Below are positions 2,566 through 60,928 of a stretch of DNA of 64,000 nucleotides, one piece after another; within the stretch, counting starts at the first letter, position 1; each line of letters starts with the position of its first letter. The stretch spans positions 133,407 through 197,406 of the forward strand of contig CAKPKP010000001.1 in the NCBI GenBank assembly GCA_934167495.1, in the 5' to 3' direction. Under the pieces are notes generated by a model. That model saw nothing but the letters and a program-made list of their open reading frames with translations. It had not been told where the DNA came from and searched no databases. This DNA is from an uncultured Clostridia bacterium (lineage in GTDB: Bacteria > Bacillota > Clostridia > TANB77 > CAG-508). A program made the position numbers and the translations under genes.

Positions 2566-4263
2566 ATGAAAAGCAAAGTAATGTTAAATAAAAAAATAGT
2601 TATATATATAATTATTTTTGTATCGACATTATTTATATTAGGATGTGGAAATACAGCCAATGCTGCGCATGTTAGTGAAAACATAGATGAAATTGATGAA
2701 ACAAAATATCCAGGGTATAAAGAAACAATAAATTCATTGAAATCACAACATCCAACATGGAATTTTAAGTTTTATTATACAGACTTAGATTGGGAAGAAG
2801 TTATTACTAACGAATATCAAGGTCATGGTAGATCACCAAAAAACTTATCACCAGCTAACAATATTTATTATGAAGGCGAATGGATATGTCCATATTGTAA
2901 AGATACAACATATGATAGTGGAAATTGGTATTGTGCTTCAGAAGCTGCAATAAAATATATGATGGATCCAAGAGGTTCAATAAATAGTTCAGATATATTT
3001 CAATTTCAAGATTTATCTTCTCCAAATGTAGTAAGAGAAAATGTTGCAAAAATGGTAGAAGGTACTTTTTTAGATGAAAAAAATTGTATAGATGCAATAG
3101 TAACTGTAAGTAAACAATATAATATAAATGGTTATTATCTTGTAGCAAGAATGTTGCAAGAACAAGGTAGAAACGGTTCGGTTTTAAGCCTAGGAAATGG
3201 ATATAATGGAAATTATGTTGGAGTATATAATTTATTTAATATTGGAGCATATGGAAGCGGAACAAGTAATGTTATAATGAATGGTTTAGAATATGCCGAT
3301 AAGCGTGGTTGGTATTCTAAAGCTGATTCAATAATTGGTGGAGCTGAAATTGTTGCAAAAGAATACATAGCGATAGGACAAAATACATTATATTTTCAAA
3401 AATTTAATGTTGTAACAAGTAACCTTTATAATCACCAATATATGCAAAATATATTAGCTGCTCAAAGAGAGGGTTCTACTTTGAGAACAACATATGAAGA
3501 AATAGATCCTGAACTTTCAAGCACATATACTTTTTTAATACCAATTTATGAAAATATGCCTGAGCAAGTTTCATTAAGACCTTCAACAGTTACAAATCTA
3601 ACAGAAGATGTTGAAGAAGCTATTGTTAATGCAATAGGCGGATTAAAAATAAAGGAGGCTCCAGGAGTTGCTTCAAGACAAATTTCAGCAGTTGAAGAAG
3701 GAGCAACGGTAAAAATTATATTAAGAGCTCAAGAAAAAGTAGATGGATATTATTGGGATAAGATATTAACTAAATCAGGTTATTATGGATATGCTGCAAG
3801 AGGAGCTGCAGATGGAAGTAAATTATATCTAGTTGTTGAAAAAGACAACAACAACAATAATGATAATAATAATGACAATAATAATGATGATGGCAAAACA
3901 GAGAAACCTGTGGAAAAAATTGAGCTAACAACTACAGAAATAAAATGTTCACCAGATGTATCACTAGATGCTATAAAAAATCAATATAAAAATGTAGAAT
4001 ATACGGCAGAAAAAATTGCTACAGGAGAAATTATAAAAATTGATGGTAAAGAGTATACAGTTGTAAAAAAAGGCGATTCAAATGGAGATGGAGAAGTAGA
4101 TATTTTAGATGTTGTAGTAGTTTTAAATTATTTAAAAGGAAAAACAAGTTTTGAAAAAGATTGTTTTATAGAAGCTAGTAAAGTAGCATCACAAGATGAA
4201 GAAATATCAATATTAGATGTTGTAAAATTATTAAATTATTTAAAAGGAAAAACTGAAATATAA
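2566..4263 (+). CDS. secreted GH73 mannosyl-glycoprotein endo-beta-N-acetylglucosaminidase with SH3b-like domain, Asn/Asp-rich linker and C-terminal type-I dockerin
   Basis: signal peptide; YYLVARMLQEQG...NTLYFQKFNV glucosaminidase signature; GDSNGDGEVDILDVVVVLNYLKGKT plus degenerate second repeat ISILDVVKLLNYLKGKT. Confidence 0.7.
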   Translation: MKSKVMLNKKIVIYIIIFVSTLFILGCGNTANAAHVSENIDEIDETKYPGYKETINSLKSQHPTWNFKFYYTDLDWEEVITNEYQGHGRSPKNLSPANNIYYEGEWICPYCKDTTYDSGNWYCASEAAIKYMMDPRGSINSSDIFQFQDLSSPNVVRENVAKMVEGTFLDEKNCIDAIVTVSKQYNINGYYLVARMLQEQGRNGSVLSLGNGYNGNYVGVYNLFNIGAYGSGTSNVIMNGLEYADKRGWYSKADSIIGGAEIVAKEYIAIGQNTLYFQKFNVVTSNLYNHQYMQNILAAQREGSTLRTTYEEIDPELSSTYTFLIPIYENMPEQVSLRPSTVTNLTEDVEEAIVNAIGGLKIKEAPGVASRQISAVEEGATVKIILRAQEKVDGYYWDKILTKSGYYGYAARGAADGSKLYLVVEKDNNNNNDNNNDNNNDDGKTEKPVEKIELTTTEIKCSPDVSLDAIKNQYKNVEYTAEKIATGEIIKIDGKEYTVVKKGDSNGDGEVDILDVVVVLNYLKGKTSFEKDCFIEASKVASQDEEISILDVVKLLNYLKGKTEI

Positions 4264-4285: not shown

Positions 4286-5260
4286 ATGAAAAGTAAAATA
4301 CTAAAAGCAAGTGTAATATTAACATTAATTATTACATTATGTGTTAATTTTAATTTCGTATTAGCAGTAGATGATAACACTACAGGTGATGGAAGTTCAT
4401 CAACAACTCCAGTAAGTACACCAGATAGTACACCTGTAAGCACACCAAAACCAACTGTAGAAAGTACGCCAGTTCCAACGGCAGAACCAACACCAACGCC
4501 AACGTCAAAGCCTACAGTTGAGCCAACGGCAGAACCAACAGAAGAACCAACTCCTACAGAAGAAGAGCCAACTGAAACTGATGCACCAACACCAACAGCA
4601 ACAGCAACTTCAAAACCTACTCAAACTCCAAAGCCAACATCAACAGCTACACCAACAGCTAAACCAGTAGAAGACACTCCAGAGCCAACTGCTACAGAAA
4701 ACCCTAACAAAACTACTAGTACAGGTAATGTTGTTTTAAATACTGTTGTTAAAAGTGTTACAACAAAAGAGGATTTTACAGGAAAAGGAGTATCATCAAT
4801 AAGTGTAAAAAGTATAAATTCTCAAGACGAAAAGAAAGATATTGAATTAACTCCCAAATTTGATGTTAATACATATAACTATAAATGTAGAGTAGATTTA
4901 GATGTTGAAAAAATAGAAATAGACATAGAACTTATTGATGAAAGCTGGTCTTCAGAAATTATTGGGAATGGAAAAATAGTTGAAGGTGAAAATATAATAA
5001 CTATAATATCAAGTAATGATGATAAAACAGAAAATGTTATATATCAAATAAACGTTACTAAAGCTAATGAGGTTACAAATAATGCTATTACTACTAAGGA
5101 AAATGAAAATGGAGAATCTAAAAGAAGTGCTAACAAAGATATTATTTTAATAGTATGTATAATAGTAATTATAGTATCAATATTAATCATAATTATTACA
5201 AAATATTTAAGTTATAAAAAAGAAAATAAATTTAGGAGGGAAGATAAAGATGAAATGTAA
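4286..5260 (+). CDS. surface protein: signal peptide, Pro/Thr-rich linker, cadherin-like beta-sandwich domain, C-terminal TM anchor
   Basis: PT repeats TPVSTPKPTVESTPVPTAEPTPTPT; NYKCRVDLDVEKIEIDIELID...GENIITIISSNDDKTENVIYQINV; C-terminal ILIVCIIVIIVSILIIIITKY + basic tail. ATG 4286 preferred over TTG 4268. Confidence 0.5.
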   Translation: MKSKILKASVILTLIITLCVNFNFVLAVDDNTTGDGSSSTTPVSTPDSTPVSTPKPTVESTPVPTAEPTPTPTSKPTVEPTAEPTEEPTPTEEEPTETDAPTPTATATSKPTQTPKPTSTATPTAKPVEDTPEPTATENPNKTTSTGNVVLNTVVKSVTTKEDFTGKGVSSISVKSINSQDEKKDIELTPKFDVNTYNYKCRVDLDVEKIEIDIELIDESWSSEIIGNGKIVEGENIITIISSNDDKTENVIYQINVTKANEVTNNAITTKENENGESKRSANKDIILIVCIIVIIVSILIIIITKYLSYKKENKFRREDKDEM

Positions 5261-17518: not shown

Positions 17519-17520
17519 TA

Positions 17521-17632
17521 TAATAGGAAAATCATACAATTTTCCTATTATATAAATACTTTGTACAGAAATTTGTTATATGCAAATTTCACACACGAAC
17601 AATTAAACGTGGGCTAAATTCTACAAATTTAA
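17521..17632 (+). repeat. dispersed structured intergenic repeat, copy 1 (H1 hairpin + H2 hairpin + CACACGAACAATTAAACGTGGGCT arm)
   Basis: taataggaaa..tttcctatta hairpin, then aatactttgtacagaaatttg..caaatttcacacacgaacaattaaacgtgggct; shared with 5 other loci. Confidence 0.6.
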
Positions 17633-17645
17633 ATATAGGTGAAAT

Positions 17646-19364
17646 ATGAAATTAGAAAAGAAAAGATATTCTTATATAATAATTGCGGTAATAAGTATTA
17701 TAATGTGTTTGGGATTTAAGGACTATGATATAACACTTGCAGATGATGGATTTGTTCATTATTTAAGAGTAATTGGAACTGTAGAGTCTTTAAATGAAGG
17801 AATAATTCCACCACTTATTAGTCAATATTTTGTAAATAATTTAGGATATGGTATAAATCTATTTTATAATCCAATTGTAACTTATATACCTACTTTTTTA
17901 AAGATGTTATTGCCATTTTCATATTCTTACATATTAAAATTCTTTACATGTTTAACAGTATTTTTATCTGGTATATTTATGTTTGAATTTTGCAGAAATA
18001 TTTTTAAAAATAATAATATAGCAATAATTTCAGCAGTTTTGTATATAACAGCACCATATAGATTAACAGATATTTATATAAGATTTGCAATGGGGGAATT
18101 TACAGCATTTGTTTTTATTCCAATTTTATTATTAGGACTATATAATTTATTTTACGAAAATACAGAAAAAAGTTATTATATAACAATAGGTGCAGTAGGA
18201 TTAATTCTTACACATACAATAACTTTATATTATATGTGTTTTTTTAGTATATTATTTGTAATATTAAATATAAAGAAATTAAAAAATATAAAAATAATAA
18301 AAAAAATACTAATAAACATAGCTTTTATTGTAACAATTAGTGCATTTTTCTTAGTTCCACTTTTAGAATGTAAAATGTTTGCTAATTATGCAATATTTGA
18401 TGAAAATATAATGCAAACTAATGCAGAATGGGTAAAAGGAAAAACTATTCCTTTATCAGAAATATTTTTAAACAATGCTAAAACAGACGAAGATTTAAAT
18501 GTGTTATTTAGAATAGGAACACCATGTTTAGTATTTATTTTAATAGGAGTACTAATTTTCAAAAAAATAGATAATAAATATAAAAAATATTATATAATAA
18601 ATATGGTATTTTCATTATTATGTATATTTATGGCAAGTGAATATTTTCCTTGGGACAAGCTTCCAAATATATTATGCAAAATACAGTATCCATGGAGAAT
18701 GATAGGTTTTTTAACAGTATTTTTATCTATAGTGTGTTCAATAAACTTTTGTACATTTTTAGATATTTGTACAGTTAATAAACCAAAGGCTAAAATGATA
18801 TTTTTATGTATAATGATATGTTTAATAACAGCAAGTGGCATTGTAGATATATTGCCATATTTACAAGGTATGAGTGATAAAGAAAACAATAACGATATAA
18901 AATATGAAGAGTATATATTAAGTAATTTATCTATAGAACCAATGCAAATAAATAGGGAATATCTTCCTACAAAAGCACTTATGAATTTAAACTACATATC
19001 AAATAGAGATGAAAATGTAAAAATCATGAATGGAAATGCTAATATTAAAAACACAAAAAAAGAAAATTTAAATTATAGTTTTGAATATTCAAATGCAGAG
19101 AAAGATACAATAGTTGAATTACCATATTTGTATTATCCATATTATAATGTTAAAATAAATAATGAAAAAGTAGATATTATTGAATCAAGTAATGGATTAA
19201 TATCGTTAAAATTAAATGGTGAAGGAACTGTTACTTTAAAATATAGTTTAACTATATTTTCAAAAATAGCATATATAATTTCAATAATAAGTTTAATAAT
19301 ATTTATAATATATGTTATAAAGAAAAAAGAAAATATAAAGCTTATAGAAGAAAGAGAAAATTAA
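17646..19364 (+). CDS. GT-C fold membrane glycosyltransferase-like protein (YfhO-like)
   Basis: ~13 TM; DDGFVHYLRV motif in first extracytoplasmic loop. Confidence 0.45.
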   Translation: MKLEKKRYSYIIIAVISIIMCLGFKDYDITLADDGFVHYLRVIGTVESLNEGIIPPLISQYFVNNLGYGINLFYNPIVTYIPTFLKMLLPFSYSYILKFFTCLTVFLSGIFMFEFCRNIFKNNNIAIISAVLYITAPYRLTDIYIRFAMGEFTAFVFIPILLLGLYNLFYENTEKSYYITIGAVGLILTHTITLYYMCFFSILFVILNIKKLKNIKIIKKILINIAFIVTISAFFLVPLLECKMFANYAIFDENIMQTNAEWVKGKTIPLSEIFLNNAKTDEDLNVLFRIGTPCLVFILIGVLIFKKIDNKYKKYYIINMVFSLLCIFMASEYFPWDKLPNILCKIQYPWRMIGFLTVFLSIVCSINFCTFLDICTVNKPKAKMIFLCIMICLITASGIVDILPYLQGMSDKENNNDIKYEEYILSNLSIEPMQINREYLPTKALMNLNYISNRDENVKIMNGNANIKNTKKENLNYSFEYSNAEKDTIVELPYLYYPYYNVKINNEKVDIIESSNGLISLKLNGEGTVTLKYSLTIFSKIAYIISIISLIIFIIYVIKKKENIKLIEEREN

Positions 19365-23984: not shown

Positions 23985-24030
23985 AAAAACTATAATTATG
24001 TGTTATAATACATAATTATAGTTTTTTCTA
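23985..24030 (+). terminator. rho-independent terminator
   Basis: ctataattatg-tgttataataca-taattatag + T6. Confidence 0.5.
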
Positions 24031-24225
24031 TTATAGGAAAGTTCTCTGAACTTCCTATAATAGAAATATATTGCACAGAAATTTGCTTTGCAAATTTCGC
24101 ACACGAACAAAGACGCGGACTTCAAAATGTTTTAATAAGTGCAAAAGCTATTAATGTCCGCTTTTGTTCTCTAATAGGAAATTACTTTGAATTTCTTATC
24201 ATATAAATACTTTATGCAGGAGGAT
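24029..24225 (+). repeat. dispersed structured intergenic repeat, copy 2 (variant B with GAACAAAGACGCGGAC...GTCCGCTTTTGTTC long hairpin, plus second degenerate H1)
   Basis: near-identical to copy 5 over ~140 nt. Confidence 0.6.
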
Positions 24226-24231
24226 AAATAA

Positions 24232-24933
24232 ATGAGTTATATAGAATTTAAAAATGTATGTAAAGAATATATAATGGGAGAAATGAAAATAAAAGCACTA
24301 GATAATACTAATTTTTCAATAGAAAAAGGAGAATTAGTAGTTATAGTTGGACCTAGTGGGGCTGGAAAAACTACAACCTTAAATATACTTGGCGGAATGG
24401 ATACAGCAACATCAGGTAGCGTAATAGTAGATGAAAAAGATGTAACTAAATTAAAAAATAAAGAGTTAATAAAATATAGAAGAGAAGATATAGGGTTTGT
24501 ATTTCAATTTTATAATTTAGTTCAGAATTTAACAGCTTTGGAAAATGTAGAACTTGCAACTCAGATTTGTTCAGATGCATTAGATCCAAAAGAGGTATTA
24601 GAAAAGGTTGGATTAAAAGATAGATTAAAAAATTTCCCATCACAATTATCTGGAGGAGAACAACAAAGAGTTGCTATAGCAAGAGCTATAGCAAAAAATC
24701 CAAAGTTATTACTTTGTGATGAGCCAACAGGCGCTTTAGATTATAATACTGGAAAACAAATACTTAAATTATTACAAGACACATGTAGAAAAGAAAATAT
24801 GACTGTCGTAATAATAACTCATAATACAGCAATAGCTCCTATGGCAGATAAAGTTATACATTTTAAAAATGGAACAGCATCTAATATAGAAATAAATAAA
24901 GAACCAATATCAATCGAAAGGATAGAGTGGTAA
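24232..24933 (+). CDS. MacB/FtsE-type ABC transporter ATP-binding protein
   Basis: [23 protein letters not shown]. Confidence 0.85.
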
Positions 24934-30026: not shown

Positions 30027-30088
30027 TCTAATAGGAAATTTCTCTGAAATTCCTATTAGACAAATACTTTGTACAGAAATTTTGTCCT
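30026..30088 (+). repeat. dispersed intergenic repeat, copy 3 (truncated after H2 start)
   Basis: gtctaataggaaatttctctgaaattcctattagac + aaatactttgtacagaaattt. Confidence 0.5.
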
Positions 30089-30095
30089 AAAAGTA

Positions 30096-30124
30096 TTGAC
30101 ATTACTAGAAATAATACATATAAT
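30096..30124 (+). promoter_or_regulatory. consensus sigma-A promoter TTGACA-17-TATAAT for sigH
   Basis: exact consensus hexamers with 17-nt spacer. Confidence 0.55.
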
Positions 30125-30163
30125 AGCCCTAGAATACAACATAGGAGGTATCTTTAGGTTATT

Positions 30164-30808
30164 ATGTCAAATAGCAACATATATTCATTAAATGGAAAAT
30201 ATATTAATATAGAAGATGAGAAGCTAATAGAGATGATAAAAGCTGGAGATCAAAAGGCTTTAAATTTCCTATTAGACAAATATAACAATATGGTTAATAT
30301 GAAAGTTAACAAATATTTTATAATAGGAGCTGAAAGAGAAGACATAGTTCAAGAAGGATTAATTGGATTATATAAGGCAATAAAGAATTTTAATGGAGAA
30401 AAGCAAAATTCATTTAAAACCTTTGCTAACTTATGTATAGAAAGACAATTAATAACAGCTATAAAAAGTTCAAATAGGCAAAAGCATATGCCATTAAACT
30501 CATATTTATCCTTAAACAATTCGGCCTATGAAGAAAACGAAGATACAGAGTTGCTAGAAGTATTTGATACAGACATAATAGAAGACCCTCTAGATACAAT
30601 AATGAAAAAAGAATATTACAAATCAGTAGAAAATGAAATAGATAAAAACCTAAGTGACTTTGAAAAACAAGTTTTAAATAGATACACAAACGGAGAATCT
30701 TATATAGAAATAGCAACAAGATTAAATATGCCAGTAAAATCAATCGATAATGCAATACAAAGAATAAGAAAAAAAGCAACTAAAAATATAATATTAGATA
30801 AAGATTAA
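30164..30808 (+). CDS. sigH: RNA polymerase sigma factor SigH (Spo0H)
   Basis: near-colinear with B. subtilis SigH: YFIIGAEREDIVQEGLIGLYKAIKNF, RQKHMPLNSY, VKSIDNAIQRIRKK. Confidence 0.85.
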   Translation: MSNSNIYSLNGKYINIEDEKLIEMIKAGDQKALNFLLDKYNNMVNMKVNKYFIIGAEREDIVQEGLIGLYKAIKNFNGEKQNSFKTFANLCIERQLITAIKSSNRQKHMPLNSYLSLNNSAYEENEDTELLEVFDTDIIEDPLDTIMKKEYYKSVENEIDKNLSDFEKQVLNRYTNGESYIEIATRLNMPVKSIDNAIQRIRKKATKNIILDKD

Positions 30809-30857: not shown

Positions 30858-30933
30858 GCTTTCATAGCTCAGTCGGTAGAGCACTACCTTGGTAAGGTAG
30901 AGGTCGCGGGTTCGATTCCCGCTGTAAGCTCCA
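30858..30933 (+). tRNA. tRNA-Thr (anticodon GGT), CCA encoded
   Basis: GCTTTCATAGCTCAGTCGGTAGAGCACTACCTTGGTAAGGTAGAGGTCGCGGGTTCGATTCCCGCTGTAAGCTCCA; one U-U mismatch in acceptor stem. Confidence 0.75.
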
Positions 30934-30937
30934 ATTC

Positions 30938-31004
30938 ATGTCAATGGGGACGGAGATTTTTGACACAAAAACAAACTGTCAAAAACCTCCGTCCCCATTG
31001 ACAT
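30938..31004. repeat. 67-bp GC-cored palindromic element, copy P1
   Basis: atgtcaatggggacggagatttttgaca-caaaaacaaac-tgtcaaaaacctccgtccccattgacat. Confidence 0.7.
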
Positions 31005-32911: not shown

Positions 32912-32950
32912 TTGGGAGGGTACCATCAATATGGATACCCTCTTTTTATT
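32912..32950 (+). terminator. rho-independent terminator
   Basis: gagggta-ccatcaatatgga-taccctc + tttttatttt. Confidence 0.55.
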
Positions 32951-32963
32951 TTGTTCTCAACGG

Positions 32964-33030
32964 ATGTCAACGGGGACGGAGATTTTTGACACAAAAACTA
33001 ACTGTCAAAAACCTTCGTCCTTATTGATAC
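32964..33030. repeat. 67-bp palindromic element, copy P2 (degenerate right arm)
   Basis: atgtcaacggggacggagatttttgacacaaaaactaactgtcaaaaaccttcgtccttattgatac. Confidence 0.65.
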
Positions 33031-33178
33031 TTGCTGTCATATAATGCAATTCAATAAGTAAGTTGACATTTTATGTAAAGCAATATATAATATATAATAT
33101 ATTTTTTAGTTACCCAAAAAGGTTTAACAAATCTTGGAGGGTAAAACCTCCAAGAAATACAAGGAGGAATTATTTATT

Positions 33179-33568
33179 ATGACTGCATTAAAGCAATTTA
33201 ACAGAGCACTTGAAAAACTGCCAACTAGATTAAAAGAATTAAAAAAATTAATTACCCAACAAGATTGGAAGAAAGAAGAGATAAATCAAGCAATTTCAAT
33301 ACTTGAAAGTCTTGAAGAAGGAGATTGGTTTGATTCAATACCATATGCCAGTATACAATTTACCAGGGTGGCATTGTACTTTTCTCCGAGTGAATGTGGA
33401 GTGAATAATAAGTTTTTTAATTCTAAAAATATTCTAAAGGCATGCGAATACACCCGTGGGTTGTTGGAAAAGATAAATGAAATATCTAAGTACATACAAT
33501 TTACCTTAGACGGATGGGCACTTGAAGATGAGGAAATGTGTATATTTTATATCAGGTGGGAAATTTAA
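33179..33568 (+). CDS. hypothetical 129-aa protein inside the islet
   Basis: AAGGAGG RBS; preceded by perfect hairpin cttggagggtaaaacctccaag; no recognisable motif. Confidence 0.45.
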   Translation: MTALKQFNRALEKLPTRLKELKKLITQQDWKKEEINQAISILESLEEGDWFDSIPYASIQFTRVALYFSPSECGVNNKFFNSKNILKACEYTRGLLEKINEISKYIQFTLDGWALEDEEMCIFYIRWEI

Positions 33569-33626
33569 AAAATATAGTTGAAATAGATAGGTTTTATACA
33601 AATTAGTATGAGACCTATTTATTATT

Positions 33627-33780
33627 TAATAGGAAATTCCAATGAAAATCCTATTAGATAAAATTACATTGTACAGAAATTTGCTATATGCAAATTTCGT
33701 ACACGAACAATTAAACGTGGGCTGAACGTTACAATTTAAAATGTAGAAAAATTTAATCAGCCACTATTGTTCTTTGGGGT
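33627..33780 (+). repeat. dispersed structured intergenic repeat, copy 4 (full variant A with 3-prime closing arm)
   Basis: H1, H2, and cacgaacaattaaacgtgggctga...tcagccactattgttc. Confidence 0.6.
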
Positions 33781-33786
33781 TGCTAA

Positions 33787-33820
33787 ATGATGTCAAAAAT
33801 CTCCGTCCCCATTGACATAT
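33787..33820. repeat. palindromic element half-copy P3 (exact reverse complement of P1 left arm)
   Basis: atgatgtcaaaaatctccgtccccattgacatat. Confidence 0.65.
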
Positions 33821-33839
33821 AAAATTGTGATGATATAAT
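33812..33839 (+). promoter_or_regulatory. promoter TTGACA-16-TGaTATAAT for mscL; -35 lies inside palindrome half-copy
   Basis: ccattgacatataaaattgtgatgatataat. Confidence 0.5.
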
Positions 33840-33876
33840 ATTTTTTAGTAAAATATATTATTATAGGAGAAGTATT

Positions 33877-34344
33877 ATGGGAAAAAAAGAAGAAATAATG
33901 AAAAAATTAGACAAAGATGAATTAAAAGAAGTAAACAAGAGAATAAGCAAAGGTGCATCAGAATTTAAAAAATTTATAATGAAAGGTGATGTTGTTGACT
34001 TAGCTGTTGGTGTTATAATAGGTGGAGCTTTTGGAAAAATAGTAACTTCTTTAGTAAATGATATATTAATGCCAATAATTGGAGTATTAATTGGAGGGAT
34101 TGATTTTAGTAATTTAAGTATTGATTTTATAGATGCTAAAATTATGTATGGCTCTTTTATTCAACAGGTTTTGGATTTTCTTATAATTTCATTATGTATT
34201 TTTATCTTTGTTAAAGTTATAGCTAAAATTACAAATAAAAAAGAAATTGAGGAAGAGAGTGAAAAAGAGAGTAAAAAAACAGATGTGGTTATATTATTAG
34301 AAGAAATTAGAGATTTGCTAAAAGAAAAAAATAATATAAAATAA
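33877..34344 (+). CDS. mscL: large-conductance mechanosensitive channel
   Basis: [29 protein letters not shown]. Confidence 0.9.
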
Positions 34345-34457
34345 GAAATTTGTATTTTGATTTAAAATATGCTATAATTCAAAGCATTATCAGGTTTTAA
34401 CCTGGAATTTCTAATTATATTCAACAAAAATAATTTTTTATTGGAGGTTTTAAAACT

Positions 34458-34753
34458 ATGTTAGAAAAATTTTTAAAGTACATTTGAATTCCTACAAATT
34501 CGAGTCATGAAACAGAAAAAAAGCCGAGTACAGAATCCAAATGGAATTTAGCAAGAGTACTAGTCGAAGAACTAAAAAATTAAATCCTGATTAAAAAAAT
34601 CATGTAGGTAAAACTTTAATTACTACAGATTATTACCAAAAGAATATCCTAAAACAACTGAAAATGATGAAGGATATTATCATATCGGTTCAATTCGAGG
34701 CGATGTTTCAGAAACAAAAATGAGATTTTTGATTAGAGATTTTAAAATGGCAA
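34458..34753 (+). pseudogene. peptidase T (pepT) remnant: N-terminal and mid-gene fragments with stops and a large internal deletion
   Basis: MLEKFLKYI*IPTNSSHETEKKPSTESKWNLARVLVEELK matches PepT N-terminus (ERFTTYVKVDTQSDES..PSTPGQLTLGNMLVDELK); EGYYHIGSIRGDVSETKMRFLIRDF matches PepT [25 protein letters not shown]. Confidence 0.6.
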
Positions 34754-34767
34754 ATTTGCTTTTTAAT

Positions 34768-35040
34768 ATTATAGGAAAGTTCGCTGAACTTCCTATAATA
34801 TAAATATATTGCACAGAAATTTGCTTTGCAAATTTCACACACGAACAAAGACGCGGACTTCAAAATGTTTTAATAAGTACAAAAGTTATTAATGTCCGCT
34901 TTTGTTCTCTCTTTTTCTATATATTTTTGGATAGAAAATTTACTAAAATCAATTCTGCACAATAACAATTAAATGTGGACTAATTTCCACAATTTGAAAT
35001 ATAGAAAAATTTAATTAGTCCATTATTGTTATATTATTTA
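34768..35040 (+). repeat. dispersed structured intergenic repeat, copy 5 (variant B module followed by variant A 3-prime module)
   Basis: near-identical to copy 2 for ~140 nt, then acaataacaattaaatgtggactaa...ttagtccattattgtt. Confidence 0.6.
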
Positions 35041-35165
35041 GATTTTGCATCAATAAATAAAATTTATTCTAAAAGCATTGTAATATTTAAAATATTTGAT
35101 ATAATCTAGTATATTGATTTTAAAATAAAATTAAAAATATAATAAATATAAAAGGAGAAAACAAA

Positions 35166-48890: not shown

Positions 48891-49030
48891 TAATAGGAAA
48901 TTTCTTTGAAATTCCTATTAAATAAATACTTTGTACAGAAATTTGATATATGCAAATTTCACACACAAACAATTAAACGTGGGTTGAACTCTATAATTTA
49001 AAATAATGTTATAAATGGTTTGTTTTTTGC
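48891..49030 (+). repeat. dispersed structured intergenic repeat, copy 6
   Basis: aataggaaatttctttgaaattcctatt + aaatactttgtacagaaatttgatatatgcaaatttcacacacaaacaattaaacgtgggttgaa. Confidence 0.6.
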
Positions 49031-59641: not shown

Positions 59642-60928
59642 ATGAAAAGGAAAATTTTTTTTTGCTATGTAAAAAAGAAAAACAATAAAACTTGTAGAGA
59701 AGTAAAAAAAGCAAATTTAAAAAAACATCAAATAACATTTTTATTATTTCTAAGTATATTGTTTATGACATCGACTTCGTTAGCTTTTGGACCATCTAGT
59801 ACTCCTCTTTATAATGGAATTGATGTAAGTCAGTGGCAAGGAAGTATTGATTATTCACAACTAAGTTCAGATGGAATACAAATTGTATACATAAGAGCAG
59901 GAGAAGGATTTGATTATGTTGATCCATATTATATGAGAAATTATAATGGAGCAAAACAAAATGGCATAAAAGTAGGTTTTTATCATTATGTTACTGCAAA
60001 AAACGAAGAAGAGGCAATAGAACAGGCTGATTTTTTTGCATCTTTAGTAGGGGGATTGGATGTAGATTGTAGATTAGCAATGGATTTTGAAAGCTTTGGT
60101 GGATTAGGCGTAGATGAAATAAACAATATATCAATAGCATATTTGCAAAGATTAGAAGAAAAGACAGGAAAAGAATTAGTTATATATAGTGATGCTTCAA
60201 ATGCAATAGATGTTTTTGGGGATTATTTAGCTCAAAATTATCCAATATGGGTTGCGGATTATTTTGTAACAGAACCTGAGAGCAATGGAAAATGGGACAC
60301 ATGGATAGGGTTTCAATATAGTGATTTAGGAGATGTTAGTGGTATAAATGCTAATGTGGATTTAGATTATTACACAAATCAAATACTTTTATCAGATTCT
60401 ACTACTATTCCAGCTCAAGATACGAAACCTAATAATCCAGATGATACAAAAACAATAATAGTACAAAGAGGAGACACATTAAGTTATCTTGCAATAGAAT
60501 ATGGAACAACTGTAGAAAGATTAGTAGAATTAAATGATATAAGTAATCCAAATTTAATCTATGTAGGTGAGACGTTAAATGTTCCAGTTAGTGGAGCACA
60601 ATCTACAACAACTACTATATATTATAGAGTAGAGAGAGGAGATACTTTGAGTCAGATTGCATTAGAGTATGGAACAACTGTAGATAGATTAGTAGAATTA
60701 AATAATATAAGTAATCCAAATCTGATTTATGTAAATGAAATAATAGAAATCCAGTCAAGAAGAACTGTATTAGGAGATACAAATCACTCATTATATACAG
60801 TAAGAAGCGGAGATACATTAAGCCAGATTGCATTAGAATATGGAACAACAGTAGAGCGATTAGCAGAGTTAAATGATATAAGTAATCCAAATCTAATATA
60901 TGTAGGCGAAGTTTTAAGAATAATATAA
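59642..60928 (+). CDS. secreted GH25 muramidase with three C-terminal LysM domains
   Basis: [11 protein letters not shown]25 signature; 3x [29 protein letters not shown]. Confidence 0.8.

What the first reader, a model, noticed from the sequence alone, without database searches (positions are those of the whole stretch)
33690..35040. Compensatory base changes between repeat copies support a conserved helix
Copy 4 has GTGGGCTGA...TCAGCCAC. The corresponding module in copy 5 has GTGGACTAA...TTAGTCCA. The changes G>A and C>T on one arm are matched by C>T and G>A on the other, so pairing is preserved while sequence differs. The variant B copies likewise keep GACGCGGAC/GTCCGC. Selection on secondary structure implies either a structured RNA or a DNA cruciform/protein recognition site, not neutral drift.
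Basis: seen in the sequence. Interest (0 to 1): 0.6.

Follow-up and report, generated by a model that had tools for sequence, protein, structure and literature searches.

The report
Hairpin-built mobile repeat that targets terminators
The paired base changes are real, but the helix is one of three hairpins in a small, previously undescribed mobile repeat of uncultured gut Clostridia that inserts just after transcription terminators, so it most likely serves the element's own spread and is not a host RNA gene.

Summary
The sequences quoted are in the window. Copy 4 and copy 5 differ by two G:C-to-A:T double changes in one helix.

That helix is "module C" of a 141-148 nt intergenic repeat made of three hairpins (A, B, C). 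The window holds eight copies or fragments, all on the + strand. Over 100 more copies were found in about 30 uncultured low-GC gut Clostridia genomes and in metagenomes.

Two filled/empty site pairs show it is mobile. It has no terminal inverted repeats and no target duplication. It sits directly after a terminator hairpin plus a T-run ending in AT.

Helix C is paired in about 94-96% of cells. Fully compensated versions occur mainly between subfamilies. Thirteen of 28 distinct variant-A copies carry a mismatch or bulge. Covariation is significant for hairpin A, and only suggestive for helix C within one subfamily.

G:T wobbles outnumber A:C mismatches two to one, which points to folding of the + strand alone. 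The last two flank bases covary with two bases inside the element.

Best reading: a non-autonomous transposon resembling an IS200/IS605 derivative that moves through a single-stranded intermediate. No transposase was found. It is a new member of a known kind, of moderate interest.

The parts
33705..33773 (+). Module C of copy 4, the helix in the finding. Outer stem GAACAAT/ATTGTTC. Inner arms at 33717-33725 and 33757-33764, with one bulged G. A small middle helix lies in the loop.
34963..35031 (+). Module C of copy 5. Outer stem TAACAAT/ATTGTTA. Perfect 10-bp inner helix at 34976-34985 and 35013-35022.
34917..34962 (+). Degenerate remnant of modules A and B belonging to copy 5, an old copy. 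It is present both in strains with the neighbouring variant-B insertion and in strains without it.
   Evidence: direct reading
33626..33773 (+). Complete variant-A element (copy 4): hairpin A 33626-33657, hairpin B 33673-33698, hairpin C 33705-33773.
34768..34908 (+). Complete variant-B element: hairpin A 34768-34799, hairpin B from 34813 (34813-34842 includes its short 3' tail), hairpin C 34843-34908. The site is empty in strains L133, L135, L137-L141 and L149-L151.
34745..34767 (+). Target of that insertion: small hairpin GGCAAATTTGC followed by TTTTTAAT, from the former pepT terminator.
24030..24219 (+). Complete variant-B element (24030-24170) followed head-to-tail by a lone hairpin A (24171-24219) that runs into the ribosome-binding site of the next gene.
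17520..17639 (+). 3'-truncated variant-A copy: hairpins A and B and the 5' half of C, directly after a terminator.
30028..30084 (+). 3'-truncated copy: hairpin A and the start of B, directly after a terminator.
48890..49008 (+). 3'-truncated variant-A copy: hairpins A and B and the 5' half of C, directly after a terminator.
32938..32963 (+). Empty target site CCCTCTTTTTAT|TTTGTTCTCAACGG after the Band_7 gene terminator. The same site holds a variant-B element in L132-L136 and L147-L153.

Best explanation
The helix is the right-end hairpin (module C) of a 141-148 nt non-autonomous mobile element built from three successive hairpins, A, B and C.

Shown:
- The element is dispersed in many copies across a clade of uncultured low-GC gut Clostridia.
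- It is present or absent at otherwise identical sites.
- It has no terminal inverted repeats and makes no target duplication.
- It lies in a fixed orientation immediately after an intrinsic-terminator-like hairpin plus T-run (flank consensus TTTTTTAT).
- Its own right end (hairpin C plus TTTTGTTCT) mimics such a target, which explains head-to-tail arrays.

Inferred:
- It moves through a single-stranded intermediate, most likely top-strand DNA handled by an IS200/IS605-type HUH transposase supplied in trans.
- The hairpins are the recognised structures.
- The last bases of the flank are read by base pairing with a two-base guide just 3' of hairpin A.
- Lineages whose hairpins stay paired keep propagating, so subfamilies differ by compensated pairs, while many resident copies pick up one-sided mismatches.
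For: Family and spread:
- Eight copies or fragments in the window, all on the + strand.
- 74 copies in 92 genome loci and about 33 more in metagenome loci.

Mobility:
- Two filled/empty pairs with boundaries defined to 1 nt and no duplication.

Target:
- The 45 nt upstream fold at a median of -13.4 kcal/mol, against -3.15 for controls. 69% reach -10 or lower, against 2% of controls.
- In the flank, T is at 76-96% of positions -8 to -3, A at 78% of -2, and T at 91% of -1.

Right end:
- It is fixed as ...TTGTTCT, with background composition beyond it.

Helices:
- 94.7% of cells paired in 53 variant-B elements.
- 13 pairs with double changes against 6.9 +/- 1.5 in shuffles (0 of 500 shuffles reach it). 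11 of the 16 pairs of hairpin A covary.
- Subfamilies A and B carry three fixed compensated pairs in helix C. Pairing is 95.6% against 88.5 +/- 0.5% in shuffles.

Single-strand signature:
- 69 G:T cells against 33 A:C cells in stems. The corresponding transitions in unpaired columns number 71 against 80.

Flank-guide covariation:
- AT/AT in 44 copies, CT/AG in 3, AA/TT in 2, GT/AC in 1.
- All 9 elements with a non-AT guide have a non-AT flank. My Fisher estimate is about 1e-7.

Strand:
- The window's + strand has GC skew +0.25, so it is the leading-strand sequence. The element's top strand therefore lies on the lagging-strand template, as reported for IS608 (abstract of PMC6006769).

Precedent in IS200/IS605:
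- Gene-less derivatives exist (palindrome-associated transposable elements, PATEs).
- A TTTAT motif next to the left end is known.
- Excision depends on a DNA guide inside the left end (PMC10055086; abstract of PMC3201880).
Against: - No autonomous copy (left end, ORF, right end) exists in the 1.1 Mb of related sequence held.
- No transposase or reverse transcriptase appears among 30 window ORFs scanned here or in the precomputed Pfam hits of the 23-44 kb stretch.
- The left-end and right-end hairpins are unlike each other, whereas IS200/IS605 ends usually carry similar palindromes.
- The apparent guide lies 3' of hairpin A, not 5' of a hairpin foot as in IS608.
- Orientation agrees equally well with the adjacent gene (52/60) and with the local gene majority (50/59). 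The discordant cases split 4 to 3, so a replication-linked bias is not shown.
- One filled/empty pair differs by a CT dinucleotide from the boundary given by the other pair.
- The three stem differences between orthologous copies in near-identical strains are all exchanges between G:T and a Watson-Crick pair. That hints at constraint on resident copies, which a purely selfish model does not require.
Confidence: 0.55

Rival explanations
1. The element acts as RNA for the host. It would be transcribed by read-through behind the upstream gene, and its three hairpins would stabilise the 3' end, back up termination or insulate the next gene. Host selection would then keep helix C paired.
For: - 52 of 60 copies are co-oriented with the upstream gene and sit right after its terminator.
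- G:U-compatible changes are favoured on the + strand.
- In orthologous copies of near-identical strains, all three stem differences keep pairing through G:T.
- Copy 5 keeps a perfect helix C although its modules A and B have decayed.
- In variant B, the paired columns of module C are 3.5 times less variable than the unpaired ones.
Against: - Strains with and without a copy at the same site are otherwise 97-99% identical, so a copy is dispensable.
- 13 of 28 distinct variant-A copies have a broken pair or bulge in the helix.
- Four of the eight window copies are 3'-truncated and lack helix C.
- There is no Rfam match even at E = 10.
- In variant A, paired columns are not more conserved than unpaired ones.
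- No transcript data were available.
Confidence: 0.2
2. The element is mobile through RNA: a small parasite of a retroelement that recognises terminator hairpins plus a short flank pairing, as class C group II introns do.
For: - Insertion is orientation-specific, right after intrinsic terminators.
- Short flank-element base pairing resembles IBS-EBS recognition in group II introns.
- There is no target duplication.
- The target logic of class C introns is from my own knowledge (Robart, Seo and Zimmerly 2007) and was not read here.
Against: - There is no group II intron or other ribozyme match in the window or in the element.
- The element has none of the intron boundary or domain V features (direct reading).
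- No reverse transcriptase was seen.
- Truncated copies are mostly 3'-truncated with intact 5' ends. Reverse transcription that starts at the 3' end would give the opposite pattern.
Confidence: 0.1
3. There is no selection on structure. Palindromic arms would be kept complementary by templated mutation within the hairpin (quasipalindrome correction) or by gene conversion among copies, and the compensated variants would be by-products.
For: - Both strands fold equally well.
- Hairpin A was precisely deleted at one orthologous site between short direct repeats, which shows that the palindromes misbehave as DNA (L005 against L055).
- Copies within one genome are nearly identical.
Against: - Templated correction gives perfect Watson-Crick pairs and no strand asymmetry. 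Stems instead hold 69 G:T against 33 A:C cells, and G:T intermediates persist in orthologous copies.
- Many copies keep uncorrected mismatches.
- It would not explain the flank-guide covariation, because the flank is not part of the repeat.
Confidence: 0.08
4. The inverted repeats are double-stranded binding sites for a dimeric protein, or they extrude as cruciforms. The symmetry would be kept for that reason.
For: Hairpin B (GAAATTTGC-N3-6-GCAAATTTC) is conserved in sequence as well as in pairing across subfamilies. This holds even in the metagenome set, where its 5' half was not part of the search pattern.
Against: - For hairpins A and C the sequence changes while pairing is kept. A sequence-reading protein would not tolerate that.
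- A G:T against A:C asymmetry is not expected for duplex or cruciform DNA.
- Helix C has asymmetric internal loops and a 30-38 nt loop.
Confidence: 0.05

Closest known systems
Non-autonomous IS200/IS605 derivatives (palindrome-associated transposable elements, PATEs)
   Same: - No terminal inverted repeats and no target duplication.
- Hairpins near both ends.
- A conserved motif on the 5' flank, TTTTTTAT here, compared with the TTTAT motif of ISGst2.
- Base pairing between the flank and a guide inside the left end.
- The top strand lies on the leading-strand sequence.
   Different: - No tnpA or tnpB partner was found.
- The left and right hairpins are unrelated in sequence.
- Hairpin A starts at the very first base, and the apparent guide lies 3' of it.
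- There is a strong preference for terminator hairpins.
- There are three hairpins, with a sequence-conserved middle one.
REP/BIME sequences with RAYT (Y1 HUH) transposases
   Same: Abundant extragenic palindromes just downstream of genes. They are hairpins read as single-stranded DNA, and their stems are kept paired while the sequence drifts.
   Different: - REPs are single 20-40 nt G+C-rich hairpins with a GTAG head (my own knowledge), often in inverted pairs and mainly in Proteobacteria.
- This is a 141-148 nt AT-rich three-hairpin unit, always in direct orientation, in Clostridia. No RAYT gene was seen.
Pneumococcal BOX and SPRITE repeats (Croucher et al. 2011, PMC3049150)
   Same: Small interspersed repeats of a Firmicute. 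BOX is modular (boxA-boxB-boxC). They are strongly folded, enriched downstream of coding sequences, mirror the coding bias, and have no known dedicated enzyme.
   Different: - BOX ends pair with each other as terminal inverted repeats. Here each module folds on itself and the ends do not match.
- SPRITE itself looks like a terminator. This element inserts next to one.
- The search with the variant-B copy found no similar DNA in the plasmid or phage collections.
Class C bacterial group II introns
   Same: Insertion just after intrinsic terminators in the terminator's orientation, with a very short flank pairing. This reads as a safe-haven strategy.
   Different: The element has no ribozyme domains, no reverse transcriptase and no intron boundaries. 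It is about five times smaller than even ORF-less introns. There is no Rfam match.
Integron attC sites
   Same: Recombination sites whose folded single strand is conserved while the sequence is not.
   Different: The element lacks the RYYYAAC and GTTRRRY core sites (direct reading), is not in cassette arrays, and follows terminators of ordinary housekeeping genes.

Membership tests
Classical MITE (cut-down DDE transposon) | Terminal inverted repeats | tested here: not met
   The left end ATTATAGGAAAGTTC and the reverse complement of the right end, AGAACAAAAGCGGAC, do not match (direct reading).
Classical MITE (cut-down DDE transposon) | Target site duplication | tested here: not met
   Two filled/empty pairs show no duplication beyond a 1-nt ambiguity.
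IS200/IS605 non-autonomous derivative (PATE) | No inverted repeats and no duplication, with insertion 3' of a short conserved flank motif | tested here: met
   Flank consensus TTTTTTAT before the left end in 68 independent sites. Empty sites.
IS200/IS605 non-autonomous derivative (PATE) | Subterminal imperfect palindromes at both ends, similar to each other | tested here: inconclusive
   Hairpins are present at both ends, but hairpins A, B and C are not alike in sequence.
IS200/IS605 non-autonomous derivative (PATE) | Flank motif recognised by a guide sequence inside the left end | tested here: inconclusive
   The last two flank bases covary with two bases 3' of hairpin A: all 9 non-AT guides have non-AT flanks, and 6 are Watson-Crick complementary. 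The numbers are small and the geometry is atypical.
IS200/IS605 non-autonomous derivative (PATE) | A cognate Y1 HUH TnpA in the same genomes, with full-length elements sharing the ends | not testable with these tools
   None was found in the 1.1 Mb held or in the window.
IS200/IS605 non-autonomous derivative (PATE) | Orientation tied to the replication direction | tested here: inconclusive
   All window copies lie on the G-rich strand. Across loci, gene orientation and replication direction are confounded.
REP/RAYT | Short G+C-rich hairpin with a conserved GTAG head, inverted pairs, and a flanked RAYT gene | tested here: not met
   The unit is AT-rich, 141-148 nt, has three hairpins and occurs in direct orientation only. 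No GTAG head is present (direct reading).
Any Rfam RNA family, including group II introns and the IS605-orfB / HEARO RNAs I recall as Rfam members | Match to a curated covariance model | tested here: not met
   Only two tRNAs reach gathering score in the window. Nothing credible appears in 33550-35100 at E up to 10.
Integron attC | R''/R' core sites RYYYAAC...GTTRRRY and a cassette array next to intI | tested here: not met
   Helix C ends are GAACAA(A/T)...(T/A)TTGTTC. The neighbouring genes are housekeeping genes with their own terminators.

The most novel reading that the evidence does not exclude
The element may belong to an undescribed class of guide-directed mobile DNA. This class would recognise the folded terminator (hairpin plus T-run) of any gene as a safe landing site. 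It would read the last flank bases by pairing with its own left end, and it would regenerate a target with its own right end. The enzyme driving it would not be a canonical IS200/IS605 TnpA. The identical 21-nt hairpin-B core inside an unrelated structured repeat of Paceibacterota genomes would then point to a shared, widely distributed protein partner.
Probability: 0.2. Interest if true: 0.7.

Novelty: new member of a known kind. Interest (0 to 1): 0.4.

Why it matters
- For annotation: this is a high-copy, strongly folded intergenic element, with about one copy per 8 kb in this window. Covariation-based screens would flag it again and again as a candidate structured RNA. Knowing that it is mobile prevents that misreading.
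- For mobile-DNA biology: terminator-specific, orientation-specific insertion without duplication, together with flank-guide covariation, gives a compact and testable system for structure-guided target choice in a clade with no cultured members.
- For population genomics: the copies are polymorphic between 97-99% identical gut strains, so they can serve as strain markers. They also lie at sites of local rearrangement, such as the pepT deletion and the mscL upstream region.

Tried and rejected
- Rfam at gathering score and at E up to 10 gave nothing.
- Similarity searches in annotated plasmids and phages, run with the variant-B copy in distant mode, gave no match.
- An IMG/VR scan found one decayed copy and no autonomous form.
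- I looked for a left end and a right end separated by an ORF across all loci held and found none.
- Exact-protein look-up of the window's MscL returned only sequences identical to the window. Close MscL homologs were needed to find empty sites.
- A virtual-empty-site BLAST across all loci found only the same two polymorphic sites.
- A test separating replication-linked from transcription-linked orientation was uninformative, with discordant cases at 4 to 3.
- Classical MITE, REP, integron attC and group II intron readings failed their defining features (see the membership table).
- An outward promoter in the element was considered. The TATAAT in the right arm of hairpin A is not kept in subfamilies with TAGAAT, TAGTAT or TATTAT and has no -35 box, so I rejected it.
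- Helix C acting as a terminator was considered. The U-rich stretch is part of the outer stem rather than a free tail, so I judged it unlikely.

Full report
**Observation.** The window is 27% G+C with almost all genes on the + strand. In copy 4, GTGGGCTGA lies at 33717-33725 and TCAGCCAC at 33757-33764. In copy 5, TGGACTAATT lies at 34976-34985 and AATTAGTCCA at 35013-35022. The two copies differ by two G:C-to-A:T double changes. Copy 4 also lacks one C of the family consensus TCAGCCCAC, which leaves a bulged G. In variant B only GCGGAC/GTCCGC pairs. A 7-bp outer stem (GAACAAT/ATTGTTC in A, GAACAAA/TTTGTTC in B) encloses the inner helix in every variant. Module C folds better than shuffles (z = -2.7 to -3.8), and whole elements much better (z = -6.6 and -7.3). 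Both strands fold about equally well.

**What the helix belongs to.** It is the third module of a 141-148 nt repeat made of three successive hairpins:
- Hairpin A: ATTATAGGAAAGTTC-loop-GAACTTCCTATAAT.
- Hairpin B: ACAGAAATTTGC-N3-6-GCAAATTTC.
- Hairpin C: the helix of the finding.

The window holds eight copies or fragments, all on the + strand:
- 17520-17639 is 3'-truncated.
- 24030-24170 is complete and carries an extra hairpin A at 24171-24219.
- 30028-30084 is 3'-truncated.
- 33626-33773 is copy 4.
- 34768-34908 is a complete variant-B copy.
- 34917-35031 is copy 5, old, with decayed modules A and B.
- 48890-49008 is 3'-truncated.

Rfam has no match.

**Spread.** They hold 74 family copies, nearly all in uncultured low-GC gut Clostridia labelled Clostridium sp. 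CAG:440, 27_14, 28_12, UMGS1994 or Hadza MAGs. A metagenome scan anchored outside the inner helix added about 33 variant-A copies. Variant B is the commonest form.

**Mobility and anatomy.** Close MscL homologs led to strains 97-99% identical to the window. Two sites are polymorphic.
- Site 1. Strains with an intact pepT gene read ...GGCAAATTTGCTTTTTAAT|CTCTTTTTCT. The window reads ...TTTTTAAT[ATTATAGG...GTCCGCTTTTGTT]CTCTTTTTCT.
- Site 2. The window and L143 read CCCTCTTTTTAT|TTTGTTCTC after the Band_7 terminator. L132/L133 read CCCTCTTTTTAT[ATTATAGG...GTCCGCTTTTGTTC]TTTTGTTCTC.

The boundaries are defined to 1 nt. There is no target duplication, and the ends are not inverted repeats. Across 80 distinct right flanks the element ends in ...TTGTTCT, and composition is background after that. 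Site 1 is short of this by one CT, possibly through slippage in a (CT)n run. This is unresolved.

**Target.**
- In 68 independent sites the 45 nt upstream fold at a median of -13.4 kcal/mol, against -3.15 for controls. 69% reach -10 or lower, against 2% of controls.
- The flank reads T at positions -8 to -3 (76-96%), A at -2 (78%) and T at -1 (91%).
- The element therefore lands at the end of the T-run of an intrinsic-terminator-like hairpin, in the terminator's orientation.
- Its own right end (hairpin C plus TTTTGTTCT) has the same geometry. This explains head-to-tail arrays in L012, L060, L063, L081 and window 24171.

**Covariation.** RNAalifold predicts hairpins A, B and C.
- 53 variant-B elements. 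94.7% of cells are paired. 13 pairs show double changes, against 6.9 +/- 1.5 in shuffles (0 of 500 shuffles reach it). This is driven by hairpin A, where 11 of 16 pairs covary. Helix C is almost invariant.
- 28 distinct variant-A copies of module C. 93.7% of cells are paired, against 28-58% for slid controls. Pairs with double changes number 6 against 4.2 +/- 1.2 (61 of 500 shuffles reach it). Cells with double changes number 18 against 6.3 (0 of 500), a measure that relatedness inflates.
- Between subfamilies. Variants A and B align without gaps in both arms and differ by three fixed compensated pairs: outer pair 7 T:A/A:T, inner pair 2 T:A/C:G, and inner pair 5 G:C/A:T. Overall pairing is 95.6% against 88.5 +/- 0.5% in shuffles. 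L083 (GTGAGCTTAAC/GTTAAGCTCAC), copy 5, L088 and L091 add further double changes.
- Single copies decay. In the variant-A inner helix, 10 of 28 distinct sequences are all Watson-Crick, 5 add wobbles, and 13 have a non-pair or bulge. Orthologous copies with shared flanks carry one-sided changes.

So the helix is conserved at the level of propagating lineages.

**Which strand and which molecule.**
- Stems hold 69 G:T cells against 33 A:C cells. In unpaired columns the transitions that would create them number 71 against 80. The + strand therefore folds on its own. That fits RNA or top-strand single-stranded DNA, and not duplex DNA or a cruciform.
- Orthologous copies in the L137 strains differ from the window at three stem positions. 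All three are exchanges between G:T and a Watson-Crick pair, and one shows the series G:C (family consensus), G:T (L137), A:T (window).

**Flank-guide covariation.** The two bases just 3' of hairpin A pair with the last two flank bases, which the empty sites show to be target DNA.
- AT/AT occurs 44 times, CT/AG 3, AA/TT 2, GT/AC 1, GT/AT 2, AC/AT 2, CT/AA 2 (both in tandem arrays) and AA/AG 1.
- All 9 non-AT guides have non-AT flanks.
- This is the logic reported for IS200/IS605. There, a motif beside the left end (TTTAT for ISGst2) is read by a DNA guide within the left end, and gene-less derivatives exist (PMC10055086; abstracts of PMC3201880 and PMC6006769).

**Orientation.** 52 of 60 copies are co-oriented with the upstream gene and 50 of 59 with the local gene majority. 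Discordant cases split 4 to 3, so replication and transcription cannot be separated. The window's + strand has GC skew +0.25.

**What was not found.** There is no left end-ORF-right end arrangement in the 1.1 Mb held. No transposase or reverse transcriptase appears among the window's ORFs scanned here or in the precomputed Pfam hits of the 23-44 kb stretch. The variant-B copy has no match in the plasmid or phage collections. One decayed copy sits on a viral contig.

**Conclusion.** Its meaning is that a selfish, terminator-targeting, hairpin-built repeat needs its stems, most plausibly for single-strand transposition of the IS200/IS605 kind. An RNA role for resident copies remains a live rival. 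The family is undescribed, but it is of a known kind.

Noticed in passing
window 30938-31004, 32964-33030, 33791-33818: A second repeat family: a ~64-nt near-perfect palindrome (ATGTCAAYGGGGACGGAGATTTTTGACA ... TGTCAAAAAYCTCCGTCCCCATTGACAT). The first copy lies just after the tRNA at 30858-30930. At the third site (33791-33818) the right end supplies the TTGACA -35 box of a 12/12 promoter match before mscL (33812-33839). A second 12/12 match lies at 33063-33091, just downstream of the second copy.
   Followed up: partly
window 33030-33820, compared with L132/L133 2330-2440: Relative to sister strains, the window carries an extra block between a full palindrome and a duplicated right half of it. 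The block holds a 129-aa ORF with no Pfam hit (33180-33568) and the variant-A element. This looks like an insertion or rearrangement mediated by the palindrome.
   Followed up: partly
window 34440-34758: This is a remnant of a peptidase M20 (pepT-like) gene. The gene is intact at 398 aa in strains L133, L135 and L137-L141, and reduced here to fragments with internal deletions. The variant-B element sits at its former terminator.
   Followed up: yes
L001 4695-7920; also L007, L010, L015, L023, L073, L086: Paceibacterota (candidate phyla radiation) MAGs carry a different ~170-nt structured repeat. It contains the identical 21-nt core ACAGAAATTTGC-N-GCAAATTTC nested in a long hairpin (CCCCGTGGAGTAG...CTACTCCACAGGGT). 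In L001 it recurs six times at ~600-nt spacing, and the gene starts read downstream of several copies look like ribosomal-protein genes by eye.
   Followed up: no
L005 about 4180-4217 against L055 about 1363-1415: At an orthologous site, hairpin A is precisely deleted in one species between short TATAT direct repeats. This is the kind of slippage expected across a DNA palindrome.
   Followed up: no
window 17597-17650, 24171-24235, 30060-30165: Truncated copies run straight into the ribosome-binding site or promoter of the next gene. Examples are ...ATATAGGTGAAATATG at 17646, GCAGGAGGATAAATAAATG at 24232, and TTGACA-N17-TATAAT after 30084. Element remnants therefore now form part of 5' regulatory regions.
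   Followed up: no
window 60466-60904; 4086-4253; 4409-4657: Coding tandem repeats: a 168-nt unit repeated 2.6 times that looks LysM-like, a pair of dockerin-like 60-nt repeats, and Pro/Thr-rich linker repeats.
   Followed up: no
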